From: a virus
IMG/VR virus record: IMGVR_UViG_3300029922_000003
Length of the DNA: 64,000 nt
Reading direction: 5' to 3' (one strand)
Shown here: positions 39,562 to 50,946 of the stretch, piece after piece
How the letters are laid out: every line of letters begins with the position of its first letter
How positions within the stretch are numbered: the first letter of the stretch is position 1
Translations under genes and position numbers: made by a program
The notes under the pieces: model-generated
What the model saw: the letters and a program-made list of their open reading frames with translations, nothing else
Databases searched by the model: none
What the model was told of the DNA's origin: nothing

Positions 39562-39894
39562 ATGCAAACCAGTTTTCTTCCTAGCGATCCAGATCCTTAT
39601 ATACCCCAAAGAGAAAATGCTGAAAATGCCCTAAAAGTATTCAAAGATTCAGTTCAGGCATTTTACCACCCAACCCCATCTGCCACTCTCCATAACATAG
39701 ATCAGATATCAACAGGGGGACACTCTTCCCTTCAGTTCCTAGAGGAAGCAGCTAGACACGCCCATACATATATCTCTCACCTAGAGAAGAACTTCCCTCA
39801 GTTCAACTATCCAGAAACTAGATCTAATGCTGTTCTTAGGGCAAAATTCGAGGAAAGCCTCCCGTCTGCCATAGCCCACTTGTTTAAGGCTTAG
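39562..39894 (+). CDS. Lone plus-strand hypothetical protein
   Basis: 110 aa exactly filling the gap between two minus-strand genes; AT-rich upstream. Confidence 0.65.
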   Translation: MQTSFLPSDPDPYIPQRENAENALKVFKDSVQAFYHPTPSATLHNIDQISTGGHSSLQFLEEAARHAHTYISHLEKNFPQFNYPETRSNAVLRAKFEESLPSAIAHLFKA

Positions 39895-42251
39895 TACCCT
39901 ACTGTACCTTTGGGTGGCTTTCCAAACTCTTTCCCGTACGCGAGGGCAGGGATTGGGTTTGTCCCGTGGATGTCTGAGTAGACATCGCCACTGATGACGT
40001 TCTTCTTGAGATTCTTCTGCACATAGGACGTACCCATCTGGGACATCCAATCCTTGTCGTGGGATGGGTTTTCCATCAGTCGAACCATGTGAGGCTCAAA
40101 GGCTGGCTTGTGATGGCTAACTAGAACCTGATCCTCACCCATGTCTCCAAGATTCTTGGCAACACTAGGAGTAATCCTTGTACCGATGCTGTAGTGCATC
40201 ACAGGAGCCTCTAGATAGTGATTGAGTGCTTTGGTTGGGTGCATGACAACAGAATCCCTGTGGGGCTTGTAGTCCTTGCTGAAGGCACTGTACTCAACTG
40301 TCTCATCGGGCAGATAGGAGTTTGTCTCGTCAGAGTCGTTGATCCTGACGTGATCTACAATGCCACGAACCAACACCTCAGCATTCCTTCTGAGCATAGG
40401 AATTCCACTCTCGCTGAAAGTGTCTTGTACCTGCTTTAAGAGATTTAAACGTCCCGCTCCGATCCCCTTCAGTCGAACAACATCAGATGGATTAATTGTA
40501 CCGGTAGAAATTCTGTCCCCAGCCTCTAACTTATCACCATGCTTTACCAGAACCTGGTGGTCTGGAGATACATAGTGCTTGTGCCCACCAATAGATACAT
40601 TGAACCCACCCTGTGGCATCGTTTCGATCTTGTCAACCTGTCCATCGTGTTCCGACAGAGAGGCTTTGTCTGGGAAAGTGTCTGGGACTTGAAACAAAGC
40701 ATTGATAGCCTTGAATCCTGTAGCTTTGGACGAGTTGGCAACGCCTGCTGAATTAGAAACAACAAGTCCATTTGCAAGAACAAATAGGTGATCTGGGTGA
40801 CCCACTTCTATATCAAATGTAGGTACACTACCCATCTCCTCAATGCCAACGCGCCTGAGCTTTCTGCAATCTACCACACAATCAAATGGTTCATCTCTCA
40901 ATCCGACAGAAGTAAATCCCATTGGTAATACTCCATAAAACTTATTGGTCTTAGTACCAATAGGCAAAACTTGATTTGTCCAATTTAGGTCATCCCCAGC
41001 ACACATACTTTTGTACCAACGAGATAGAATCTTGTGGTCAGCCGTACAAACAACACTTGTCCTTCCGAGATTGTTTATGCTGAACGTGTACCGCTGGCAC
41101 ACTCTATTCCCATTATCAAAAACATTTAGCACCTCAGATGGGAATGTATTGCCATTAATATCAGATCCAAGGACAAAATCCCCAGTCCGAACGTCTTGTA
41201 TTTCTTTTGTTGTCCAATCTGCCATCCTAACCAATGTTCCTTTTGATAAACAGTGCTTTTTAGATAGTTGCATTTGGCTTAAAGGCTCCGATGCAGAAGA
41301 TCCAGCAGACAGCCCAACTGCTTCTCCAAGGGCAGGGAACCCACCTCTCTCTCTTGTCCCAGCACACTTTGCGCATATTCCATTAGGTGACTCACAGGTC
41401 AAGGTAGATCTTACAACAATTCTATCCTTACCCGATTTTTTTATGTCACCAATAATCTTTGAAGTTAGTAAGGTACCAGCCTTATGCCCAGACGTATCTT
41501 TGGCTAGTACTGACCCTATGTTATCACCGTCATCTATATCTACTGGAATCCCAGTCTTGGTGCCGCAATCATGCTGCGTCACTATAAGATCTAACATTGA
41601 AGAATTGAGTTGTTTACTCAAAAATCCTGAATGCATTGTTGAGAATTTCGTTGATATTAGGCCAGCACGAGTTCCATATGACGCAGCAAAGTATTCAGCA
41701 GGGTTCAATCCCTCTGTGTAGGAATTCTTAATACCAATAGGTACTGGCTTGTTGTTTTGATCAACCACCAAGAAATCGGATCCAATATTACTATTGAGCT
41801 GGGCTTTATTACCACGAGCACCTGATGCAACCATCCTAGCAAGGTTTGATCCCTTTGCCATAGATGCATCAAAGATCATCCCTGGCATCTTGTTGGAGTA
41901 GTGATCGTAGAGCTTTACGAGGGCTTGCTCTCTTTTGTCCTGATCCAGACCTTTGTCTCCAAAGATACCACGCTCCTTCTGGGACACCTCATCCATCAAC
42001 TTGTCTTTGTCGATGGGGGATGCAAGGTCGTTCATAGAGAACGAGCTGCCAGTCTCAACCGCACCCTTTGACCCAAGGCGCAAGAGCTTGAAAGAAATGT
42101 CCCGATACTTATCAGGATCCTGCTCAGCTACTTGCTGAAGGATATCTTTGACCTCTTTGCTCCCGATGGGCTGATCGGGGGGTAGATCAGCCCTATACTT
42201 CTCGGGAACAATAGAGTCAAAAATTAGTCGTGCAACAGTAGTCGAGGCCAT
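39891..42251 (-). CDS. RNA polymerase beta' C-terminal subunit with mini-intein
   Basis: MVASGARG, bridge helix GLNPAEYFAASYGTRAGL..SGFLSKQL, Zn site HDCGT..CESPNGICAKC, trigger loop EPLSQMQLSKKH. Confidence 0.93.
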   Translation of the reverse strand: MASTTVARLIFDSIVPEKYRADLPPDQPIGSKEVKDILQQVAEQDPDKYRDISFKLLRLGSKGAVETGSSFSMNDLASPIDKDKLMDEVSQKERGIFGDKGLDQDKREQALVKLYDHYSNKMPGMIFDASMAKGSNLARMVASGARGNKAQLNSNIGSDFLVVDQNNKPVPIGIKNSYTEGLNPAEYFAASYGTRAGLISTKFSTMHSGFLSKQLNSSMLDLIVTQHDCGTKTGIPVDIDDGDNIGSVLAKDTSGHKAGTLLTSKIIGDIKKSGKDRIVVRSTLTCESPNGICAKCAGTRERGGFPALGEAVGLSAGSSASEPLSQMQLSKKHCLSKGTLVRMADWTTKEIQDVRTGDFVLGSDINGNTFPSEVLNVFDNGNRVCQRYTFSINNLGRTSVVCTADHKILSRWYKSMCAGDDLNWTNQVLPIGTKTNKFYGVLPMGFTSVGLRDEPFDCVVDCRKLRRVGIEEMGSVPTFDIEVGHPDHLFVLANGLVVSNSAGVANSSKATGFKAINALFQVPDTFPDKASLSEHDGQVDKIETMPQGGFNVSIGGHKHYVSPDHQVLVKHGDKLEAGDRISTGTINPSDVVRLKGIGAGRLNLLKQVQDTFSESGIPMLRRNAEVLVRGIVDHVRINDSDETNSYLPDETVEYSAFSKDYKPHRDSVVMHPTKALNHYLEAPVMHYSIGTRITPSVAKNLGDMGEDQVLVSHHKPAFEPHMVRLMENPSHDKDWMSQMGTSYVQKNLKKNVISGDVYSDIHGTNPIPALAYGKEFGKPPKGTVGY
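40752..41252 (-). mobile_element. Mini-intein (167 aa, no endonuclease)
   Basis: Starts CLSKGTLVRMAD, block B VCTADHKI, block F TFDIEV, ends LVVSN, Ser at +1. Confidence 0.92.
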
Positions 42252-42282
42252 CGTCTAATGTTGCACTAATAACAATCAAAAA

Positions 42283-42789
42283 TCAAGAGATGAACTTAGC
42301 ATCGCCTTTCTTGATCATACTTACTGTGAGCGTGGAGGTCTTCCCGTTGTCCCAGTGGACTTCACCACTGTCCTGTAACGTACCCTCGATACAGCGCCAT
42401 CTGGAATAAACACGGCATCCTACCTTATGGGGGAAAACATCAACAACCTCAGACACATCATCAATGGGATCAGATTGCTGAGTAAATAGCTCAACCTCTG
42501 GTTCCTCCTCTGACTCTGCCCAATCTGGGCTAATGACAACATCTCCAGATATTGCGGGATTCTCTTTGTAAAAGGTCTTTCTAACAACCCTAGCGGTTCT
42601 TTCATCCCAAATTGGGAATGTTTTTGTTAGGATATCCCCGCTCTTGATTGCATAAGAAAGTATCTCAGATACCTTATTGCAGGGGCACTGCAATTCACTT
42701 GCTACAACCTCTTGAGAGTCCCACCCCTCTGGTGCAGTAAATTGCTTGGAGGACTGGCTCTCGTATATTTTAACCCATTTCTTTGTCAT
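42283..42789 (-). CDS. Hypothetical protein
   Basis: 168 aa ORF in tight packing. Confidence 0.6.
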   Translation of the reverse strand: MTKKWVKIYESQSSKQFTAPEGWDSQEVVASELQCPCNKVSEILSYAIKSGDILTKTFPIWDERTARVVRKTFYKENPAISGDVVISPDWAESEEEPEVELFTQQSDPIDDVSEVVDVFPHKVGCRVYSRWRCIEGTLQDSGEVHWDNGKTSTLTVSMIKKGDAKFIS

Positions 42790-42810
42790 GTGTGTGTATT
42801 GTGTTTGTGT

Positions 42811-43827
42811 TTACTGTTCCTCTCTGTTCTTCAATAGAAGACCAGCGAAGGATTCGCCATTGTTGATCGTGACATTCATCATTTGAAAGTTCCCAGTAGA
42901 TCTGGAAATAACTCGTACTAGATACCCGTGTGTCCAGGTGGTCGGATTGGTGTTTGCGTAGTGGGGCTGACGTTTGCACAAGCACCCAGGATTCCATGCG
43001 GCGATAAGCCCAACATTGGGCAAAAACTTTGGCTTGAATGTAGCCCTGTGTGAATCGAAGAATACAATATTCCCTGCAGCCTTGGAAAGGGCAACCTCAG
43101 CGGCGTCAGTAGCATTGCTGATTTTGTGAACAAAAGACACCTTATCAAACTTAACCCAACCAGGTGTAATACAGTCTCCGTGAGTCATACCTTGCCGATA
43201 ATACTGGATACCCCTTTCCTTAAGACCCAGGACATGCTCTGCACAAAATGTGTTGCGTAGAAGCTCTACGTCTTTATGATGGGCTAGCTTTTGATTAACG
43301 GCCCAGCGCTCTACACGCCACTCATGATTACCCTCAATATAGTGGATATCTTCACACGAAGAGTGTTTTTGGATTTGATCCAACAATATATTGGTTACCT
43401 TTACGTCGTCCTCGTATGAGTCCTCAGTCTCAGCGAGATACCCGAGCGTATGATGTTCTGCAAGAAATCCCGAGCAGTCTAGAAGGTCACCGCCGATAAT
43501 AATTCTATCCGGCCTGATCGTTTTTAGATCTCCTAGTAGTGCCGAAAAAGCCAGTGGGTCATGTTTGTTGCCGTGAACATCCGAGAAGATTACCTCGACT
43601 ATATCACCCTTGCTAGCCAAAGTCTTTTTGGGTCTTGGAGCGACCACCACACTTTCGCTCGAAGATCGAGCAGACTTTAGGGCTTTTGCTGTTTGTTCGT
43701 GAGCTTTTCGCTCCGCTTGTAAAGCCAACTTAAGGGCTTTGATTTCATTGCTGTGCTCAGCTTCTGAACTTCTGTGGGCGATCTGGCCCCAATTAGAACT
43801 GACAGGTTTTTTGTCTATGTTGCTCAT
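42811..43827 (-). CDS. Calcineurin-like metallophosphoesterase
   Basis: SDVHG, GGDLLD, EGNHE, later His motifs; N-terminal coiled coil. Confidence 0.85.
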   Translation of the reverse strand: MSNIDKKPVSSNWGQIAHRSSEAEHSNEIKALKLALQAERKAHEQTAKALKSARSSSESVVVAPRPKKTLASKGDIVEVIFSDVHGNKHDPLAFSALLGDLKTIRPDRIIIGGDLLDCSGFLAEHHTLGYLAETEDSYEDDVKVTNILLDQIQKHSSCEDIHYIEGNHEWRVERWAVNQKLAHHKDVELLRNTFCAEHVLGLKERGIQYYRQGMTHGDCITPGWVKFDKVSFVHKISNATDAAEVALSKAAGNIVFFDSHRATFKPKFLPNVGLIAAWNPGCLCKRQPHYANTNPTTWTHGYLVRVISRSTGNFQMMNVTINNGESFAGLLLKNREEQ

Positions 43828-43879
43828 ATGAAGTTCAATTCTTACGCTGCCAGAATCGATTGTGCAAGTACTTTTTGCG

Positions 43880-44110
43880 TCAATCCTTAATTTTTAAGGC
43901 AAAGCCCATATTGGCAGCGAACGAAGAGAAGTCATCTTGCTCACTTTTTGAGACAATCCACACAGGATGTCCTGGGACCATTATTACAAGCGCCACAAGA
44001 TTACCATCGGTGTCCCGTAGCTCCAGACTAGTTACCTCCCTGGAGTCGAGGAGTGGTTCGGACAATGGTCCATTTCTGGCAATAACCCTCAATGAATTGT
44101 CTGTTGCCAT
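43880..44110 (-). CDS. Small hypothetical protein
   Basis: 76 aa coupled to upstream gene. Confidence 0.55.
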   Translation of the reverse strand: MATDNSLRVIARNGPLSEPLLDSREVTSLELRDTDGNLVALVIMVPGHPVWIVSKSEQDDFSSFAANMGFALKIKD

Positions 44111-44664
44111 TACCCCTGTGGCGGCTGCTGAGAAGGATCTGGAGCTGTCTGTCCGGCAGCGGCAGGATCTTGGCCCTGACTAGGATCTTGCGGAGCTTGC
44201 TGAGAGGGATCTGGGGGTGGCTGCTGTTGTGCACTTGGGTCGCCACCAGGAGATGGAGCACCACCGCCGCCCATAGCCTGCTGCACTAGCTGTTCCAGTT
44301 TGTTGATTCGCTCTGTAACACTCAGCTTCTTTTCTTTCTTCTCTCCCCCACCCTCACCACCTTCTGCTGGGGCAGATGCTGCAGCCTGCTGCTGAGCAAG
44401 TTGGATCTGCTGGAGCATTTGAGCTAATTGCTGCAATCCCTGATCTATGCTCTGGAACCCTTGATTTAGCATCTGAGAAATTTCTGGAAACCCAATTACT
44501 GGCTGCTCGTCCGAGCCTGGAGGTGGAGGAGGAGGCTGGGGGATCTGTCCAGATTGCTGGGCTGTGGATACAGCTACTTGAGTGGCGGGAGAAGCAACGA
44601 ATGCTTTCTTGCTTAGGTTTCCCATCACTTCAGCGAGGAGGGCTTTGTTAAAGGATTCTTTCAT
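44110..44664 (-). CDS. Gln/Pro-rich low-complexity protein
   Basis: 184 aa; leader MKESFNKALLAEVMGNLSKKA. Confidence 0.65.
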   Translation of the reverse strand: MKESFNKALLAEVMGNLSKKAFVASPATQVAVSTAQQSGQIPQPPPPPPGSDEQPVIGFPEISQMLNQGFQSIDQGLQQLAQMLQQIQLAQQQAAASAPAEGGEGGGEKKEKKLSVTERINKLEQLVQQAMGGGGAPSPGGDPSAQQQPPPDPSQQAPQDPSQGQDPAAAGQTAPDPSQQPPQG

Positions 44665-44673
44665 GAGGATCTA

Positions 44674-45297
44674 TTATTCTGAGGTATTAAACAGTAAACG
44701 GCAAGACAAGAACTCACCTGGCTCAGTAGTTCCTACTGAAGACAAGATTAGTGCCCAAGAAGTGTTGGGTGTCATTGTTATCGGCTGAAAAAAGATTGAA
44801 CTTACAGAAAGGGAGTTTTGTGTTAGACGGAAGCTCGTAGACTGAACCTGTGGGATCCCACTAACAATCTGGACAAGATACACAACAATATCTGCGCCAG
44901 TTGATGGAGTAAACACACTAGCCTGAGCCCCATAACAAGAGAGAGTAGTCCCGCTTGGAACCTGAAAGTACCCAAATTGATTTCCAGTAGATAGTGCTGC
45001 TGGATATTGGAACTCAGCCCAGGACTGAGTCGTACCACCAGATGTTTGGGTAGGTATGCCAATCAGAGATGAAATAGGCTTCCACACAATGCTGTTAATA
45101 CCATCCCATGTTGGTACCCAACCAGCGCCAACACCAGAGGGTGGCTGAGCAGCCATCTGCCCCCACGTATTCCCACCATCTGTACTAAACTGTGTAGAAA
45201 GCAACCCGGACACTGGGTCTCTAAAAAACCTAGAGATGTAATTGGGAGTCAGAGCGTTTGGTACAAACTGCTGATCTCCTAAAATTGGTGCACCCAT
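44674..45297 (-). CDS. Probable virion structural protein
   Basis: Asp-box STDGGNTW; beta-rich C-terminal domain. Confidence 0.5.
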   Translation of the reverse strand: MGAPILGDQQFVPNALTPNYISRFFRDPVSGLLSTQFSTDGGNTWGQMAAQPPSGVGAGWVPTWDGINSIVWKPISSLIGIPTQTSGGTTQSWAEFQYPAALSTGNQFGYFQVPSGTTLSCYGAQASVFTPSTGADIVVYLVQIVSGIPQVQSTSFRLTQNSLSVSSIFFQPITMTPNTSWALILSSVGTTEPGEFLSCRLLFNTSE

Positions 45298-45299
45298 AT

Positions 45300-45920
45300 T
45301 TACCAGTGAAGTAGTCGACTAATCAGACCTGGCTTCTTCTCTGGAGCAGGAGGAGCCTCCTCGACCACAATAGGTACCTGTGGGTCCGTGTCGGCTGGAT
45401 CGTCGTTGTGATTCTTGTTGTGTCGTACGCTTGTGCTAACTCTGACAGCGTGACCACTACCAATTCTCTTGGCAGCAGAACTGATGTTCATGAGGGCTGG
45501 AATAGCAGCAGTGGTTGCCGCAGCACCCCCTCCGACAAGTAGGTCTCTCTGGAGTGGAGAAAATCCCTTTCCGACTGGATTCTCCTTCATGTACCTGCTG
45601 GCATCTCTAGATGTTGCAGCAATGTTAACAGCCATGTCTTTTAGGGGGGCTCCTGCAATCACCTCAATACCATGCATATTGCCTTTAGATAGCATATGAC
45701 TACCAGCTCCACCCAATCCAGCATTAAGGGCAAGGTTCACTAATCTGCCAGTATCGAAGTTTTTGTAATTACCATTGTTCTGTACAGCATCCAGGGCTCC
45801 AGCAGTACCAACTGCTCCAATAGCAGCAGGAGCCGCTTTACCTAAATGATCCAAGATGCTCTTTATAATCTCTGGAGAAGCAGCTTTCTTGTCAAACAAA
45901 ATGGTTTTGGGTGTGTCCAT
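45300..45920 (-). CDS. Glycine-zipper probable internal head protein
   Basis: Likely start ATG 45920 (MDTPKTILFDKKAAS); Gly/Ala hydrophobic segments. Confidence 0.6.
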   Translation of the reverse strand: MDTPKTILFDKKAASPEIIKSILDHLGKAAPAAIGAVGTAGALDAVQNNGNYKNFDTGRLVNLALNAGLGGAGSHMLSKGNMHGIEVIAGAPLKDMAVNIAATSRDASRYMKENPVGKGFSPLQRDLLVGGGAAATTAAIPALMNISSAAKRIGSGHAVRVSTSVRHNKNHNDDPADTDPQVPIVVEEAPPAPEKKPGLISRLLHW

Positions 45921-45933
45921 ATCTCTCTGAATA

Positions 45934-48900
45934 TTACCCAATATCAACTTGACTGTCGATATTTAAGTCCCCTCTTCTATAGGCAGCAATAACATCTTCG
46001 GCGCTCTTGAACTTAGTCTTGGGTTTCTTATGATCCACAGCAGTAGTGTTGTACAACCCGAGGACGAACTCCTGAGATGGTGTATAGTGGGCATCTCTTC
46101 CTTTAATGGAGAGAAGGTTCTGAGATGGCATGAGCCTGTCTTTAATCTCTTTCACTGCGTCATCAGATACAGGGACGTGTACATTCATGGTGTTAGATAG
46201 AATAACTCCATCAGCGGCCATGAAGGTCTCATATCCTGGAACCGTTAGGTCGTATCCATCTTCTAACACTCCAGTCTTTTCTACAGAGTCGACGGGGGAC
46301 CAATTGATAGATTTGTTCTCTAGGAACCTCTCAGACCATTCCAGGAATTCAGGAGTGTCCACGTAGCATTGAGGGCGCTCAGTTTCGGCCAGGAATTTGA
46401 TAATGCGATCAGCAGTGGACTCTGGCAACTTACCAGTCTTGATTGGCCTGTCCAGTCCGCTATACACATTCTTCACCAATTTGTAGTTGGGGGTTCCAGC
46501 TGGAGCAACCCGAACGATTCCAGCCCTAATCTGCTGAGCGGACTTCATATCCAGCTTGCCAGAATCACGGCACTTATTGGCTACCTCAAGAGCGATTTCT
46601 ATGATTGCTCCGTCGCGACGATAGGTCTCCCTAATCTGATCAATTGCCCTGTAGGCGGAATTCCTAGAGACAGCTCCTCTGGCAATTCCTCCCCAAATAT
46701 TTCTGTAAACGGCCTTCTTATCAAGAGTCTCTTCGAGAGCAGCCCCACCAATCTTTTTAAGGTCAGAGGTAATCTGTGGGCTACCAAGTTGCCTCGAAAA
46801 CTCCTTCGCAAGACTATGCGGTATAAATACTGTATCGTACTTACCAAGCACAGGGGAGTCATCTCTGACAGGCGTGGTCAAAAATGCCTCTTTCTTCCAG
46901 GGGCACTCAAGATTCACAAAAATATTGTGTCTCTTACAGTCAACAGAGGAAAATGCCAGTATCCACGAATCATTTCCTGCGGTAGTGGTTTTGGACCAGG
47001 TGATTGTAGAATTAATCCCAAGAGTAGATGCAAGAAATTTAACATCGCGAACAAGCCTGAGTGACGTGCTAGAAAAAGCACATAGTAGCTGTGGCTTTTC
47101 CTTTGCGTGCGACACCGAGCAGGATCCATCAGTATCGACCAGTCCACAAAGAAGTCCCTCTCGGAACTCCCGTGGAGCTTGATACATAAACCCAGATAGG
47201 TGCTTGTTGCCAGAACCAGCGGTATTTTCGTCCCCCTCGCCACCCAAGTGAGTAGAAAGAAATTCTGCAAACAACTCGCTGTGCTTGAAGTTAAAAGTGT
47301 GCTTGACGGTATCTCCGTATCTGGATGGGTTGTTTGCTTTGAGCGTCTCTATCGAATAATGATAAAGAGGCCCAGACTTTAAAAACAAGTCTGTCAATAT
47401 TTTCTTTATAGATAAGGCATTATACCCCTTTAGATCTGCCATATTAATATTTCTAGAACCAAACATATCTGTTCGCTTGTGGTAATATTCATAATCTTTT
47501 TTGTCCCACCACCCATCACCACATAGGGCACCAAGCAAATACCCTAATTCCCTAGTGAGTGGGAGTTTCTTGAAGATACAATCCTCTCGATCTGTTATTG
47601 TGATCTCAGAAATTTCTGGCAACTGGCTCACAGCAGCTCCAGCGTGGGGGGAATATGGTACACAAATCTTACGGTTTAGCGCTTCAGTTGGAGTGCAGCG
47701 AATAAGGCCGTCTTCTGGTCTTGATGGATCCATTCCATAAACAGCGCGAGGGTCGTCGTCTGTAATGATCTGCCTACCAGCCAGCAAATTTACAATCTCT
47801 ATTTTCCTTTGGTAATGCTTGCTATAAAACGCAACTTGCGCCCATACAGGCTTGTTTGTCTTTTCGTCGAGTGCTAAGACCATTATATCCTCTGGGACAG
47901 AAAAGAAATCTATTGGACCATTCTTACCGTTCTCGTTGCGATTCGTAAACTCTCCGCGAGGAAAGTCCTCTAGGTCAACAACTGATACTTCATGAGTGGT
48001 GGGATTGTAATGTGGTAGTGTGATATCCTTGAACATGTCTTCACTACCGCACAATAGTGATGGATGTGTCAAATGATTTTTACTATTTGTGCATTTTTTT
48101 TGCAAACTCCTTAAAATAAGCACTTTACCAACCTGTTCGTCGCCGTCAAAGTCCGCAGTGAAGGGCTTTACAACTAATGGACTGATCCTAATTGAATCGC
48201 CAGTCACAATCTGTGGCTCTGCTCCCATTATGTTGAACCGGTGCAAAGATGGAGCTCGACTATACATGACCGGCCTAGCCTTCATCTCCTCCAACAAAAA
48301 CCTCTTTGCATAATCGGTCTTTCTCTCCACATTCAGAGCTGCCTGACTAGATGGCATTCCGTGCTTTACCAAGCGCCTCATGACAAACGGAGAATACATC
48401 TTCCACGCCATCTTTTCTGGGACCCCGATCTGATCCATATCTAGCTCATCGCTCGGGATAATTGCCCCCCTCCCAACAGTCCCCACTGTATGACCAATAA
48501 CCTTCCCCAGGAGAGATCCCGTCTTGGGTCCTCCACTCCCCGCTAGCTGGCGAATAAACCCTTTAACTCCCTTCTGCACAAGCTTGGGATGAAGCGGGTC
48601 ACCAAGCCCCATAACAGCAGCAAGCGAGTCGTACACAGCAAGTCTCTCATTGCCAGCCTCTTGATCACCAAAATCTTGTTTTGATTTTTCGTGAAGATCC
48701 CTGGCTGTCATTAGGTCTTTGTATAGATAATTGGAGTCAGCACTCAGCATCATCCTCCCAGCCATAGAAATAGGGCGATATGCGGCGGGTAAAACCGGAA
48801 CCTTAGTCATAAAGAAATCTTCCTTCCCAATACCCTGTTTCTTGATTCCAGAAATAATATTTAGCTTCTGTACGGCGCTATTCCTAGTCGTGCTAGATCC

Positions 48901-50946
48901 ATTGCGAATCTTGCTTCTAAGGTCTTGCTCCTCCTTGTCTAGATCAAGAGACCCCAAGGCATCAATCAACGCTTTGGGCCCAGTATTGCCATTGATCTGT
49001 CCCTTGTTGGATAGAATGTCGCGCATCTCGCTCTCAGTCAGCCCAAGTATCTTCCTAAGTGGCTCCTCAAGGATCGGATTTGGTACTGGCTCCCCAAGAT
49101 TAATATAGCTCCATCTCTTTCCATCAATTCCATGCAGAGATTGATCCATTAATCCACCTGGTATGGGTTGGCCACTACTAGGGTCAATAGTCTCAGAATT
49201 CTTTACCTCTCTCTGTCCAACCAATTCATCAATATCCTTAGCTTTTAGCGCTTTGATAAAAATCTTTGATCCCTTCCTCTCTGTATTAATACCAGCCCCC
49301 TTAAGCGTATTAATAAACTTATCATACACAAATGGGACCTTTGGGGCGGGAAGTGGGTGACCCATACGGATTGCACGCCAAAGATCTGGGTCGCCTCCAG
49401 TACGATAGTTTTGGATATCATACAAGTTCTTTACTGCGCCATGAGACAGTAAGGCAGTTACGTCAAGGTTTCCGATTCTTTTTGCGCTACTCGTTCCGCC
49501 TGGCTTTGTGGGCTGAAAATTTTGATCCACCCCACCCTCATCAATAGCACTCCACTTAGTATCAGCTGTGTGCTCTAGTTTGTAAAACGCCTGAATACCA
49601 GTAAGAACATTGGGAATTTTTTTGCCAGTCTCTGGATCAAATAGATCTTCTGTATCGGATACGCCGTGCTTCTTTAGTTCCCCCGAGACGAACTTGTGGA
49701 ATGAATCAGTGGAGAAGGAGGGCATTACATACTTTTGTCCAGTCTTGTGGGCTATCTTACCAAGCATTGCCTCGAAAACCATCATGGGATTCTTTCTGCC
49801 GATTAGGGCCGCTGGGTTAATTAAAATATCAATAGGGTTCCCATCACTATCCCTAAACATCTTGTGATCTGGAACAATAGACCCAATTACGCCTTTTGCC
49901 GCAGCCCTAGAAGAAATCTTATCAGCCTGACTTAGTGGGAAGTCAGCAGAAATATTTGCAGATAGACCATGCCTAGTCTCTACGGCATCTGCCACCACAC
50001 CAGGAACCGACTTTTCCCAGGTCTGACTCTTATCAGAGAATGACTTTTTAAGAATCTTGTGTAGATTGCCCTTGGCGCGGTCCTCAGCCCTAAGTACCCT
50101 AGGAGACAAAGACAAAAATATTGGATCTCCAGTTTGCAATGTTACGCCCTTTCTGGCCATTCCATTCTCTCCGATCTTATCCAATTGATCTTTTGTGTAC
50201 CTGTTTGGGAACAGTTGCATAAACTTCGACTTGTCCGACACAACACCCCCCTTATGGTCGACATCAAATCCAATCATGTGATTAGACGTAAGTTTCTTAG
50301 CAGCACCTTCACTCACTGTAATGGCATCCTCAAATGTACCACCACCCTTTCCTGGCATGAACGCTACCCTGAGGTTCTTACTTAGAGCTAGAGTGCCATC
50401 CGGCATCACATAATTAGAGTGAGCCAATGACTGACCAGGCTTAACAACATCCCCCTCCTTCACCAAGGGAGTATCGGTAGTTTGAGTTTTCCTGTTATGG
50501 CTATAGAAGTTCCTCAGTTCTACGTTGTGCTCTTTGCCGTCAGCGCCAGCTATTAGTACATTTTCTTTGTCTACCCTCTTTATAGTCCCATGCACAGGAG
50601 ACTTGACTAAGCCAACCTTAGATCCAATCACTTGTTCTAGCGGCTTGCCTGTATCATCATCCAATACCTGGACTAGCGCAGCCTCTGGATCCTTGAGCGG
50701 CAGAGCTTGATTTACGTACTTCGACCCCATGAACAATCTAGCGCCTGCCATGGTACTCCCCATTGGAGACAAATTAGAGGCCTCAGTATACAAATGACTA
50801 GGAGACATGATCTCGTAGTCTACCTCCTTGGGGGAGGCATAGGTCAGCTTGCCCCGTCTCATTGCAGGGATAAACTCTGCAGAGTGCGCATCAAAAGCTC
50901 CAGCCTCTTTTAGGAGGCCAGGGAACATCTGTTCAAAAAGATCCAT
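45934..50946 (-). CDS. RNA polymerase beta-C / beta'-N fusion subunit with intein
   Basis: beta motifs ARLFMGSKYVNQALP, DKISSRAAAKGV, DILINP, KRIGNLDVTALLSHGA; then beta' motifs VPVLPAAYRP, GRGAI, SRAPSLHR, FTADFDGD..TMNVHVP, PSQEFVLGLY. Confidence 0.93.
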   Translation of the reverse strand: MDLFEQMFPGLLKEAGAFDAHSAEFIPAMRRGKLTYASPKEVDYEIMSPSHLYTEASNLSPMGSTMAGARLFMGSKYVNQALPLKDPEAALVQVLDDDTGKPLEQVIGSKVGLVKSPVHGTIKRVDKENVLIAGADGKEHNVELRNFYSHNRKTQTTDTPLVKEGDVVKPGQSLAHSNYVMPDGTLALSKNLRVAFMPGKGGGTFEDAITVSEGAAKKLTSNHMIGFDVDHKGGVVSDKSKFMQLFPNRYTKDQLDKIGENGMARKGVTLQTGDPIFLSLSPRVLRAEDRAKGNLHKILKKSFSDKSQTWEKSVPGVVADAVETRHGLSANISADFPLSQADKISSRAAAKGVIGSIVPDHKMFRDSDGNPIDILINPAALIGRKNPMMVFEAMLGKIAHKTGQKYVMPSFSTDSFHKFVSGELKKHGVSDTEDLFDPETGKKIPNVLTGIQAFYKLEHTADTKWSAIDEGGVDQNFQPTKPGGTSSAKRIGNLDVTALLSHGAVKNLYDIQNYRTGGDPDLWRAIRMGHPLPAPKVPFVYDKFINTLKGAGINTERKGSKIFIKALKAKDIDELVGQREVKNSETIDPSSGQPIPGGLMDQSLHGIDGKRWSYINLGEPVPNPILEEPLRKILGLTESEMRDILSNKGQINGNTGPKALIDALGSLDLDKEEQDLRSKIRNGSSTTRNSAVQKLNIISGIKKQGIGKEDFFMTKVPVLPAAYRPISMAGRMMLSADSNYLYKDLMTARDLHEKSKQDFGDQEAGNERLAVYDSLAAVMGLGDPLHPKLVQKGVKGFIRQLAGSGGPKTGSLLGKVIGHTVGTVGRGAIIPSDELDMDQIGVPEKMAWKMYSPFVMRRLVKHGMPSSQAALNVERKTDYAKRFLLEEMKARPVMYSRAPSLHRFNIMGAEPQIVTGDSIRISPLVVKPFTADFDGDEQVGKVLILRSLQKKCTNSKNHLTHPSLLCGSEDMFKDITLPHYNPTTHEVSVVDLEDFPRGEFTNRNENGKNGPIDFFSVPEDIMVLALDEKTNKPVWAQVAFYSKHYQRKIEIVNLLAGRQIITDDDPRAVYGMDPSRPEDGLIRCTPTEALNRKICVPYSPHAGAAVSQLPEISEITITDREDCIFKKLPLTRELGYLLGALCGDGWWDKKDYEYYHKRTDMFGSRNINMADLKGYNALSIKKILTDLFLKSGPLYHYSIETLKANNPSRYGDTVKHTFNFKHSELFAEFLSTHLGGEGDENTAGSGNKHLSGFMYQAPREFREGLLCGLVDTDGSCSVSHAKEKPQLLCAFSSTSLRLVRDVKFLASTLGINSTITWSKTTTAGNDSWILAFSSVDCKRHNIFVNLECPWKKEAFLTTPVRDDSPVLGKYDTVFIPHSLAKEFSRQLGSPQITSDLKKIGGAALEETLDKKAVYRNIWGGIARGAVSRNSAYRAIDQIRETYRRDGAIIEIALEVANKCRDSGKLDMKSAQQIRAGIVRVAPAGTPNYKLVKNVYSGLDRPIKTGKLPESTADRIIKFLAETERPQCYVDTPEFLEWSERFLENKSINWSPVDSVEKTGVLEDGYDLTVPGYETFMAADGVILSNTMNVHVPVSDDAVKEIKDRLMPSQNLLSIKGRDAHYTPSQEFVLGLYNTTAVDHKKPKTKFKSAEDVIAAYRRGDLNIDSQVDIG
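46192..48138 (-). mobile_element. Atypical 649-aa intein with LAGLIDADG homing endonuclease
   Basis: Between DFDGD and TMNVHVP; YLLGALCGDG, LLCGLVDTDG, FSSTSLRLVRDV; block F GYDLTV; ends ILSN, Thr at +1; begins EQVGKVLIL. Confidence 0.88.

What the first reader, a model, noticed from the sequence alone, without database searches (positions are those of the whole stretch)
46192..48138. Intein in the catalytic DFDGD loop with Glu1 and no block-B His
Seen: exteins DFDGD and TMNVHVP fix the boundaries. The intein starts EQVGKVLIL (aligns to CxxGxxLV with E for C), block B is ITDDDP instead of TxDHP, block F keeps Asp (GYDLTV), and it ends SN with Thr+1. Known: class 1 needs Cys/Ser1, class 2 (KlbA) uses Ala1 with Cys+1 and the block-B His, and class 3 needs the Trp-Cys-Thr triad; none fits. 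An unspliced 649-aa insert here should inactivate the enzyme. Inference: a non-standard splicing route, perhaps direct Thr+1 attack assisted by the -1 Asp or block-B Asp.
Basis: partly seen in the sequence, partly recalled or inferred. Interest (0 to 1): 0.85.

Follow-up and report, generated by a model that had tools for sequence, protein, structure and literature searches.

The report
Nucleophile-less intein in phage RNA polymerase
A mobile self-removing protein insert (intein) sits directly after the magnesium-binding DFDGD loop of a peat phage's only RNA polymerase catalytic gene; it belongs to a large, apparently undescribed family that lacks the first-residue nucleophile, every conserved cysteine and the usual catalytic histidines, so it probably comes out by splicing chemistry nobody has studied.

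Summary
Observation confirmed in every detail. The gene at 45934-50946 (-) encodes a fused RNAP beta-C/beta'-N protein. It carries a 649-aa HINT+LAGLIDADG insert between DFDGD and TMNVHVP: Glu1 (GAA), block B TDDDPR, block F GYDLTVPG, ending SN|T.

Glu1 is not an error. The codon is identical in contigs from four other peat samples, and the identical protein lies on 16 contigs.

The insert belongs to a family of over 500 clusters at this same RNAP site. Residue 1 varies (Q, D, E, A...), no Cys is conserved, and block-B His is always Asp. The only invariant His of the splicing domain is H108, in an S/T-x-H motif. Thr+1 and Asn are essentially invariant.

The closest orthologue (about 85% identical exteins) lacks the insert and has Ala where this gene has Thr+1. 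On an extein tree the insert was gained or lost at least 43 times, and Thr+1 travels with it. Naturally split forms exist.

The AF2 model is a complete intein fold, with Glu1 at the place of Cys1.

None of intein classes 1-3 fits. Most likely it is a functional intein that starts splicing with a hydroxyl other than residue 1, probably Thr+1. No experiment exists.

This scan has flagged the same family before on other DNA.

The parts
45934..50946 (-). Host gene: 1670-aa fusion of the RNAP beta C-terminal part (Rpb2_6) and the beta' N-terminal half (Rpb1_1/Rpb1_2), interrupted by the intein
   Evidence: orthologues in phages Arash and D69
48139..48153 (-). N-extein catalytic motif DFDGD (residues 932-936); Asp936 is the -1 residue
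46192..48138 (-). Intein, 649 aa (E1 to N649)
48136..48138 (-). Codon GAA = Glu1, a non-nucleophilic first residue
   Evidence: the family's residue 1 is Q68 D29 E26 A22 of 194
48106..48135 (-). First beta-strand of the HINT fold (QVGKVLILRS; family motif x-Q-[ILV]-[GN]-x-[VI]-h-h), kept at the end of the N-terminal gene in split relatives
   Evidence: (strand, pLDDT about 85)
48019..48105 (-). Variable linker (residues 12-40). It has low pLDDT and is where natural splits fall. It holds the unconserved Cys16 and Cys30, and the G31D polymorphism at 48047
47815..47823 (-). S106-K107-H108: the family-invariant S/T-x-H motif. H108 is the only invariant His of the splicing domain and is probably the 'NX-motif' His of cysteine-less inteins
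   Evidence: Pasch et al. 2023 PMC10189870; the positional match is inferred
47746..47763 (-). Block B T126-D-D-D129-P-R131, with Asp in place of the B:10 His
47509..47547 (-). First LAGLIDADG motif (LGYLLGALCGDGW, catalytic Asp208)
47122..47157 (-). Second LAGLIDADG motif (GLLCGLVDTDGS, catalytic Asp337)
46234..46257 (-). Block F GYDLTVPG with invariant Asp630 (F:4) and Thr632
46192..46212 (-). Block G DGVILSN: penultimate Ser648 and terminal Asn649
46189..46191 (-). Thr+1 (ACC), first C-extein residue; Ala or Gln stands here in the nearest insert-free orthologues
45937..46188 (-). Rest of the C-extein (MNVHVP... to the end of the beta' N-half)

Best explanation
This is an intact, mobile LAGLIDADG intein. 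It belongs to a large cysteine-less family specialised for the DFDGD|x site of phage multisubunit RNA polymerases.

The precursor cannot be an active polymerase, because 649 residues interrupt the Mg-binding loop. The intein must therefore be removed and the exteins joined to give DFDGD-T-MNVHVP.

Residue 1 (Glu here, variable in the family) cannot make the usual first (thio)ester. I propose that splicing starts with a direct attack of the Thr+1 hydroxyl on the Asp(-1)-Glu1 amide. That is class-2-like logic, but with oxygen chemistry. Three groups of residues would take part:
- the invariant His108, acting with Asp630, as base;
- the block-B carboxylates Asp127 and Asp129 with Arg131, in place of the lost block-B His, activating the scissile bond and protonating the leaving amine;
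- Asn649, which then cyclises in the standard way, helped by Ser648 rather than a penultimate His, before an O-to-N shift completes the peptide bond.

Shown here: the anatomy, the fold, the reality of Glu1, family-wide conservation, mobility, and the link of Thr+1 to the insert. Inferred: that splicing occurs, and every chemical step.

The umbrella claim is that this is a functional intein whose first step does not use residue 1. I put that at about 0.8. The specific Thr+1-direct route I put at about 0.4.
For: Real and intact:
- The frame is open through the intein.
- The HINT+LAGLIDADG fold is predicted with pLDDT 86.5.
- It matches solved inteins at Z 16-24, with E1 aligned to residue 1 and N649 to the last residue.
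- Both LAGLIDADG Asp residues are kept.
- The GAA codon recurs in four other samples and the protein on 16 contigs.

Under selection as a splicing element:
- Over 500 50%-identity clusters carry the same insert at the same site.
- S/T106, H108, D127, D129, R131, D630, T632 and N649 are (near-)invariant, and the junction SN|T stands in 184 of 186.
- Residue 1 is Q/D/E/A/L/F..., with Cys or Ser in only 8 of 169.

Needed by the host: complete relatives Arash and D69 have a single beta' catalytic gene, and so does this contig.

Mobile:
- The orthologue with about 85%-identical exteins lacks the insert.
- There are at least 43 gains or losses on a 383-tip extein tree.

Ligation through Thr+1:
- Intein-bearing alleles have T+1 in 166 of 168.
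- Insert-free alleles have A 99, T 69, Q 31.
- In independent pairs T goes with the insert about 11 times and never the other way, p about 0.001.
- The nearest insert-free relatives of this gene have Q or A.

Precedent:
- Class 2 inteins also have Ser at G:6, lack a residue-1 nucleophile, and let the +1 residue attack the amide directly (PMC4031507).
- In cysteine-less inteins a His outside block B is essential, and the block-B His can be dispensable (PMC10189870).
Against: - No experiment shows splicing for any member of the family.
- A hydroxyl attacking an unactivated amide is chemically demanding. The only studied direct-attack inteins use Cys+1 and keep the block-B His.
- I could not read coordinates of the model, so the proximity of H108, D129, D630 and Thr+1 to the scissile bond is inferred from alignment to Npu/Ssp DnaE by eye and from the literature. 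It was not measured.
- Ser/Thr106 is as conserved as a nucleophile would be, and the invariant Asp-1 offers another route. Comparative data do not separate these routes.
- About 14% of family members encode DxNGD instead of DxDGD. The simple picture of splicing restoring a normal RNAP does not explain that.
Confidence: 0.4

Rival explanations
1. Class-3-like route with an internal oxygen nucleophile. Ser106, activated by His108 two residues on and on the same face of the strand, attacks the Asp(-1)-Glu1 amide. This gives a branched ester inside the intein. The N-extein then passes to Thr+1, followed by Asn cyclisation and an O-to-N shift.
For: Position 106 is Ser in 206 and Thr in 10 of 216 family members and never anything else. 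His108 is invariant. Class 3 shows that an internal residue can take over from residue 1 in phage-derived inteins that have Thr/Ser+1 (PMC2807308).
Against: The known internal nucleophile sits at block F:4, where this family has an invariant Asp. Ser106 may be purely structural, part of a W-S-x-H strand. No distance could be measured.
Confidence: 0.17
2. Extein-assisted route. The side chain of the invariant Asp(-1) cyclises onto its own peptide carbonyl, mirroring Asn649 cyclisation at the other junction. This releases the intein N-terminus and leaves an N-extein anhydride, which Thr+1 captures.
For: Asp at -1 is present in every member, because the site is the third catalytic Asp. An intein fixed at this site could come to depend on it. 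Inteins with a C-terminal Asp are reported to cleave by the analogous cyclisation (cited in PMC2807308 and PMC4031507). The block-B and block-F/G histidines are replaced by carboxylates and Ser.
Against: Asp-1 is conserved for the polymerase anyway, so its invariance says nothing about splicing. An anhydride could open to isoaspartate and spoil the Mg-binding loop. There is no precedent at an N-terminal junction.
Confidence: 0.1
3. Excision without ligation. Asn649 cyclisation cuts the C-terminal junction, and hydrolysis or a phage protease cuts the N-terminal one. The polymerase then works as two non-covalent pieces broken inside the catalytic loop, or as a permanently split enzyme in the split-gene relatives.
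For: Phage multisubunit RNAPs are often split, and this one already ends 85 aa after DFDGD. In relatives the gene is physically split inside the intein.
Against: Asn cyclisation needs no +1 nucleophile, yet Thr+1 is tied to the insert. No gene split directly at DFDGD|x without intein parts was seen among about 320 insert-free homologues. The N-junction is a buried strand of the fold in the model.
Confidence: 0.08
4. A dead or decaying intein in a polymerase gene that no longer functions, or that functions only through another copy elsewhere in the unsequenced half of the genome.
For: The contig is estimated at 54% complete. Loss of Cys1 and of the block-B His is what decay would look like in a single sequence.
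Against: The same substitutions are fixed in over 500 diverged clusters, and all other blocks and both endonuclease motifs are conserved. The exteins are about 85% identical to an insert-free orthologue, with no frameshift or stop. Complete relatives have one catalytic gene only. The same protein persists across samples of 2019-2024.
Confidence: 0.05

Closest known systems
Class 2 inteins (Methanococcus jannaschii KlbA orthologues)
   Same: No nucleophile at residue 1. Ser instead of His at the penultimate position (G:6). Thr at B:7 and Asp at F:4. The +1 residue is thought to attack the N-terminal amide directly (PMC4031507).
   Different: KlbA inteins have a conserved Ala1, Cys+1 and the block-B His, and they are orthologues in a single archaeal host protein. 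Here residue 1 is variable (Glu), +1 is Thr, B:10 is Asp, no Cys is conserved, and the host is a phage RNAP.
Class 3 inteins (mycobacteriophage Bethlehem DnaB prototype; split AceL NrdHF)
   Same: Non-nucleophilic residue 1, Thr/Ser at +1 and a phage origin. Split members exist. The AceL NrdHF structure aligns to the model at Z 14.9.
   Different: The defining Trp(B:12)-Cys(F:4)-Thr(G:5) triplet is absent: Arg131, Asp630 and Leu647 stand there. The block-B His that class 3 needs is Asp here.
Cysteine-less class 1 'oxyester' inteins with the NX-motif histidine (PolB16 OarG, Psp Pol-1, Tko Pol-2/PI-PkoII, Aes123 PolB1)
   Same: No cysteines and Thr+1. A His upstream of block B is essential for the first step. 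In PolB16 the block-B His is dispensable, and the intein is split after a 15-aa N-fragment (PMC10189870). Split relatives here have N-fragments of 15-39 aa. PI-PkoII (2cw7) and Aes123 PolB1 (9hth, the best mini-intein match) are among the top structural matches.
   Different: All of them keep Ser1, which forms the first ester, and the block-B His is absolutely conserved in that subgroup. Here Ser1 is gone and B:10 is always Asp. The Lys/Arg before the NX His is present in this window (K107) but in only about 35% of the family.
Homing-endonuclease inteins of known structure (TliVMA, PI-PfuI, PI-SceI)
   Same: The overall two-domain architecture of HINT plus a nested LAGLIDADG endonuclease (Z 17-24).
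   Different: Those are standard class 1 inteins with Cys1 and the block-B His. Sequence identity is 12-16%.

Membership tests
Intein (HINT splicing domain with nested LAGLIDADG homing endonuclease) | HINT fold flanking an endonuclease domain | tested here: met
   AF2 model with pLDDT 86.5. Foldseek E 2.6e-13 to TliVMA. VIA-align Z 23.6 to 7qsu and Z 16-19 to mini-inteins at rmsd 2.2-3.0 over 139-167 residues. Pfam LAGLIDADG_3 at 2e-8.
Intein (HINT splicing domain with nested LAGLIDADG homing endonuclease) | In-frame insertion at a conserved host site, absent from orthologues | tested here: met
   P0227 (about 85% identical exteins), P0228-P0234, D69 and Arash lack it and read DFDGD-[A/Q]-M.VH.P.
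Intein (HINT splicing domain with nested LAGLIDADG homing endonuclease) | C-terminal Asn followed by a Cys/Ser/Thr +1 residue | tested here: met
   The junction is SN|T. The family shows SNT in 184 of 186.
Intein (HINT splicing domain with nested LAGLIDADG homing endonuclease) | Protein splicing actually occurs | not testable with these tools
   Only comparative evidence is available: conservation, a single catalytic gene, and linkage of Thr+1 to the insert.
Class 1 intein | Cys, Ser or Thr at residue 1 | tested here: not met
   Glu1 (GAA), reproducible across samples. In the family Cys or Ser occurs in 8 of 169.
Class 1 intein | Block B Thr-x-x-His | tested here: not met
   The motif is T126-D-D-D129. 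Asp stands at B:10 in 85 of 86 members and in 185 of 186.
Class 1 intein | Block F Asp (F:4) | tested here: met
   Asp630 is invariant, and it aligns to the D of DnaB FDLTVPG.
Class 2 intein (KlbA type) | Ala1 with Cys+1 | tested here: not met
   Glu1 and Thr+1. No conserved Cys in the family.
Class 2 intein (KlbA type) | Ser at G:6 (penultimate position) | tested here: met
   Ser648, present in 85 of 86.
Class 2 intein (KlbA type) | Block-B His retained; orthologue of KlbA | tested here: not met
   Asp129 stands at B:10, and the host protein is RNAP beta'.
Class 3 intein | Trp B:12, Cys F:4, Thr G:5 triplet | tested here: not met
   Arg131, Asp630 and Leu647 stand at these positions, and all three are conserved in the family.
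Class 3 intein | Non-nucleophilic residue 1 with Ser/Thr +1 | tested here: met
   Glu1 and Thr+1.
Cysteine-less Ser1 inteins with NX motif (Pasch et al. 2023) | Ser1 forming the first oxyester | tested here: not met
   Glu1. The family's residue 1 is variable.
Cysteine-less Ser1 inteins with NX motif (Pasch et al. 2023) | [quoted passage not shown] | tested here: inconclusive
   His108 is invariant (216 of 216) and lies 18 residues before Thr126. K107 precedes it in this window, but K or R does so in only 76 of 216 family members. No residue-level superposition or distance was obtainable.

The most novel reading that the evidence does not exclude
The family represents a fourth mechanistic class of protein splicing, free of cysteine and of the three canonical histidines. 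Its first step would use either an internal Ser106-His108 dyad or the extein's own catalytic Asp(-1) through an anhydride, so it would pass through an intermediate not seen in classes 1-3. In a subset of the family the second catalytic Asp of the polymerase is encoded as Asn only when the intein is present. Maturation may therefore also rewrite an active-site residue.
Probability: 0.3. Interest if true: 0.95.

Novelty: new variant of a known kind. Interest (0 to 1): 0.8.

Why it matters
All studied inteins fall into three mechanistic classes. Each is defined by which residue attacks the N-terminal junction. This family has hundreds of diverged members, is evidently mobile, and is needed for an essential enzyme, yet it has none of the three signatures. 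It uses no cysteine and has a single conserved histidine.

If it splices, it widens the known chemistry of protein splicing. It would also offer natural cysteine-free inteins, including split ones with N-fragments of only 15-39 residues and no required first residue. That is what protein-ligation technology has been looking for.

Biologically, the phage's transcription would depend on a maturation step inside the polymerase's Mg-binding loop.

The question is directly testable with a standard reporter construct and mass spectrometry.

Tried and rejected
- Phage GenBank collection searched with the intein protein and with the gene's DNA: no match. Only the exteins find relatives there.
- Profile comparison of the family's HINT part with the window's own canonical mini-intein (hhalign against a single sequence): uninformative, probability 0.5%.
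- Sequence search of the N-terminal HINT part against PDB chains: no intein hit.
- Profile of split-form members against PDB: dominated by RNAP beta' through the C-extein, so no residue-level alignment of H108 to a solved NX-motif intein was obtained.
- Coordinates of the AF2 model are not exposed, so no active-site distances were measured.
- Literature searches and four papers on jumbo-phage inteins gave no description of an intein at the RNAP DFDGD site or of a nucleophile-less family like this. The library does not hold subscription journals, so absence is not proof.
- Sequencing error at the GAA codon: rejected.
- An N-boundary shifted by one or two residues to rescue a nucleophile: rejected. 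Residue 2 is Gln here and in 119 of 194 members, and residue 3 is Ile/Leu/Val.
- Intein starting at Cys30 (CGSEDMF), leaving a 29-aa tail in the loop: rejected. Cys16 and Cys30 are unconserved and lie in a low-confidence variable linker. The first strand docks as the canonical beta-1, and insert-free orthologues have no extra residues.
Full report
WHAT IS THERE

The finding lies on the minus strand. ORF 45934-50946 translates to an uninterrupted 1670-aa protein. Pfam finds RNA_pol_Rpb2_6 at residues 119-474 and Rpb1_2 at 889-938. It also finds a LAGLIDADG_3 domain and, below its cut-off, the C-terminal part of Intein_splicing. The host is therefore a fusion of the C-terminal part of RNAP beta with the N-terminal half of beta'.

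The window is part of a 103.7-kb viral contig. It recurs in about 20 peat metagenome runs. The nearest cultured relatives are Salmonella phage Arash and Vibrio phage D69, with about 32% identical exteins and the same fused architecture.

Residues 932-936 are DFDGD. A 649-aa insert follows:
- It begins EQVGKVLIL, with E1 encoded by GAA at 48136-48138.
- It has TDDDPR at 126-131.
- It has two LAGLIDADG motifs, with Asp208 and Asp337.
- It has GYDLTVPG at 628-635.
- It ends DGVILSN, followed by Thr+1 and MNVHVP.

BOUNDARIES

D69 reads DYDGD-A-MSVFAP with nothing in between. The closest orthologue in the protein collection is P0227, with about 85% identical exteins. It reads PFTADFDGD-A-MNVHVPVSDDAVKE against PFTADFDGD-[649 aa]-TMNVHVPVSDDAVKE here.

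A family profile aligns the C-extein from Thermus beta' Met745, the residue after DFDGDQ. The insert is therefore exactly E1-N649, and Thr+1 takes the place of the Gln or Ala of uninterrupted polymerases.

I folded the insert with 20 flanking residues on an alignment of 54 relatives. The model has pLDDT 86.5 and pTM 0.83. It is a HINT domain with a nested LAGLIDADG domain:
- Foldseek matches TliVMA, PI-PfuI, PI-PkoII and PI-SceI.
- VIA-align gives Z 23.6 to TliVMA.
- VIA-align gives Z 16-19 at rmsd 2.2-3.0 Å over 139-167 residues to mini-inteins. These include the cysteine-less Aes123 PolB1 intein and PabCDC21-1.

In those alignments model residue 20-21 (E1 is 21) pairs with residue 1 of the solved inteins, and residue 669 (N649) pairs with their last residue. 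Glu1 therefore occupies the place of Cys1 in the predicted fold, to within one residue.

IS GLU1 AN ERROR?

No. GAA needs two or more substitutions to become any Cys, Ser or Thr codon.

Contigs from four other peat samples, including runs of 2020 and 2024, cover the junction without a difference. The only variants in 701 bases are a synonymous change at codon 23 and G31D, both in the variable linker. The identical 1670-aa protein is encoded on 16 contigs of independent ENA and JGI assemblies.

IT IS ONE MEMBER OF A LARGE FAMILY

A word-indexed search found 181 proteins, and an exhaustive HMMER search found 514 representatives of 50%-identity clusters. Of these, 210 score below 1e-30, and they carry the same insert. 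The hosts are very diverse phage RNAPs, ranging from beta' N-half proteins of about 1000 aa to beta-beta' fusions of about 2900 aa.

Residue 1, anchored on the junction in 194 members, is Q 68, D 29, E 26, A 22, L 12 and so on. Cys or Ser stands there in only 8 of 169. Residue 2 is Gln in 119 and residue 3 is Ile/Leu/Val, so moving the boundary by a residue or two does not recover a nucleophile.

By contrast, the following are invariant or nearly so:
- Ser/Thr106 (Ser 206, Thr 10) and His108 (216 of 216).
- Thr126, Asp127, Asp129 and Arg131.
- Asp630, Thr632, Ser648 and Asn649.
- Thr+1.

None of the 13 cysteines of this intein is conserved. The only invariant histidine of the splicing domain is His108. 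No His column exists in blocks F and G. Both endonuclease Asp residues are conserved.

The first 11 residues form a confident beta-strand. Residues 12-40 are variable and of low confidence.

NATURAL SPLIT FORMS

Several hits begin about 40-50 residues into the intein. In two contigs the preceding gene is the RNAP:
- In the first, the RNAP gene ends DYDGD plus 39 residues. After 12 nt, a gene for the rest of the intein and the C-extein follows.
- In the second, the tail is DFDGD plus 24 residues and the gap is 55 nt.

A third N-terminal gene ends DFDGD plus 15 residues. The break always falls in the variable linker after the first strand. This shows that the nucleophile-less strand is a working part of the element.

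EVIDENCE THAT IT IS FUNCTIONAL AND MOBILE

Complete relatives Arash and D69 have a single beta' catalytic gene, and so does this contig. The interrupted gene is therefore most likely the phage's only one.

I built a tree of 383 homologues from the 240 residues upstream of the motif, with the motif excluded. On it, presence of the insert changes at least 43 times.

Thr at +1 is found in 166 of 168 resolved insert-bearing alleles. Insert-free alleles have A 99, T 69 and Q 31. In phylogenetically independent pairs, Thr goes with the insert about 11 times and never the other way, p about 0.001. The nearest insert-free neighbours of this gene have Gln or Ala.

Asn cyclisation alone would not need a +1 hydroxyl. 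This linkage is therefore the best available argument that the exteins are ligated through Thr+1.

The same genome has a second intein in the beta' C-half gene. It is entirely canonical (Cys1, T-A-D-H, SN|S). The odd features here are therefore not a habit of this genome.

COMPARISON WITH KNOWN CLASSES

- Class 1 needs Cys/Ser/Thr1 and normally the block-B His. Both are absent.
- Class 2 (KlbA) shares the missing residue-1 nucleophile, Ser at G:6, Thr B:7 and Asp F:4. But it has Ala1, Cys+1 and the block-B His, and it is confined to KlbA orthologues (PMC4031507).
- Class 3 shares the non-nucleophilic residue 1, Thr+1 and a phage origin. But it is defined by Trp B:12, Cys F:4 and Thr G:5 (PMC2807308). 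Here Arg131, Asp630 and Leu647 stand at those positions.

The nearest relatives by logic are the cysteine-less 'oxyester' class 1 inteins. Pasch et al. (PMC10189870) found in them an essential 'NX-motif' His. It lies upstream of block B, within hydrogen-bond distance of Ser1 and of the block-F Asp. They also found one intein (PolB16) whose block-B His is dispensable and which is split after 15 residues.

His108 sits 18 residues before Thr126. By my alignment to Npu DnaE it sits at the place of Arg50. That alignment was made by eye from a sequence recalled from memory, so it is an inference. His108 is probably that histidine. I could not superpose residues, so the match remains inconclusive. 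Those inteins all keep Ser1 and the block-B His, and this family keeps neither.

MECHANISM

I put about 0.8 on the umbrella reading: a functional intein whose first step does not use residue 1. Within it I favour three routes in this order:
- Direct attack of Thr+1 on the Asp936-Glu1 amide (0.4). His108 with Asp630 would act as base. The block-B carboxylates and Arg131 would activate the bond. Canonical Asn649 cyclisation and an O-to-N shift would follow.
- An internal Ser106-His108 dyad, in the manner of class 3 (0.17).
- Cyclisation of the invariant Asp(-1) to an anhydride (0.1).

These remain open, because conservation alone cannot separate them. Excision without ligation (0.08) is disfavoured by the Thr+1 linkage. 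A decaying element (0.05) is disfavoured by family-wide conservation.

AN UNEXPLAINED SIDE OBSERVATION

In 25 of 182 insert-bearing alleles, and in 0 of 201 insert-free ones, the second catalytic Asp is encoded as Asn (DxNGD). The state is scattered over the extein tree, with at least 23 changes. In independent pairs it goes with the insert 6-9 times and never against it, p about 0.03. The first and third Asp never vary. This window has DFDGD, so the puzzle does not touch it directly. It does suggest that the precursor and the mature loop are under different constraints.

EARLIER NOTES OF THIS SCAN

Other agents reported the same family on other genomes, including split members, and they pointed to the Pasch paper. 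I found the family, the split forms and the conservation pattern before reading those notes. The NX-motif reading of His108 I took from them, and I checked it only partly.

VERDICT

This is a new variant of a known kind, and possibly a new mechanistic class. No description of it exists in the searchable literature.

Noticed in passing
window 40752-41252 (-), inside the beta' C-half gene 39891-42251: A second intein in the same polymerase: a 167-aa mini-intein inserted after ...SKKH. It is fully canonical class 1 (CLSKGTLV..., block B CTADHKIL, ends VVSN|S). Its host gene has Rpb1_5.
   Followed up: partly
relatives, e.g. P0056, P0039-P0044, P0050-P0057 (not in the window): The second catalytic Asp of the RNAP triad is encoded as Asn (DFNGD/DHNGD) in 25 of 182 insert-bearing alleles and in 0 of 201 insert-free alleles. 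Insert-free proteins up to 86% identical to P0056 all read DFDGD. The state is scattered on the extein tree and goes with the insert in independent pairs. It could be co-conversion hitch-hiking, Asn-Gly deamidation after maturation, or a requirement of the splicing step.
   Followed up: partly
L005:5860-6070 and L006:5890-6060; P0367: Naturally split members of the family. The RNAP gene ends 15, 24 or 39 residues after D[FY]DGD. A separate gene starts 12-55 nt later with the rest of the intein plus the C-extein.
   Followed up: partly
P0227 (the closest orthologue found in the protein search, about 85% identical exteins): It lacks the DFDGD-site intein but carries other inteins at other sites of the same protein. 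One is a Cys1 LAGLIDADG intein between GGPK and TG (window equivalent: residues 808/809). Another ends VLVHN|T near residue 150. This polymerase lineage is an intein hot-spot.
   Followed up: no
P0250, P0256 and 4 further relatives of the same search: A different insert at the same loop reads DFDGN|C..., with the third Asp encoded as Asn and a Cys1. This is apparently the second RNAP active-site intein family that other agents of this scan described.
   Followed up: no
window 39891-50946: The polymerase is broken up unusually. Beta-C and beta'-N are fused in one gene. The beta' C-half lies 3.7 kb downstream, behind five unrelated ORFs (four without family matches and a metallophosphoesterase at 42811-43827).
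   Followed up: no
window 48047 and 48070: These are the only polymorphisms in 701 bases across four other peat samples. One is G31D in the intein's variable linker, and the other is a synonymous change at codon 23.
   Followed up: yes
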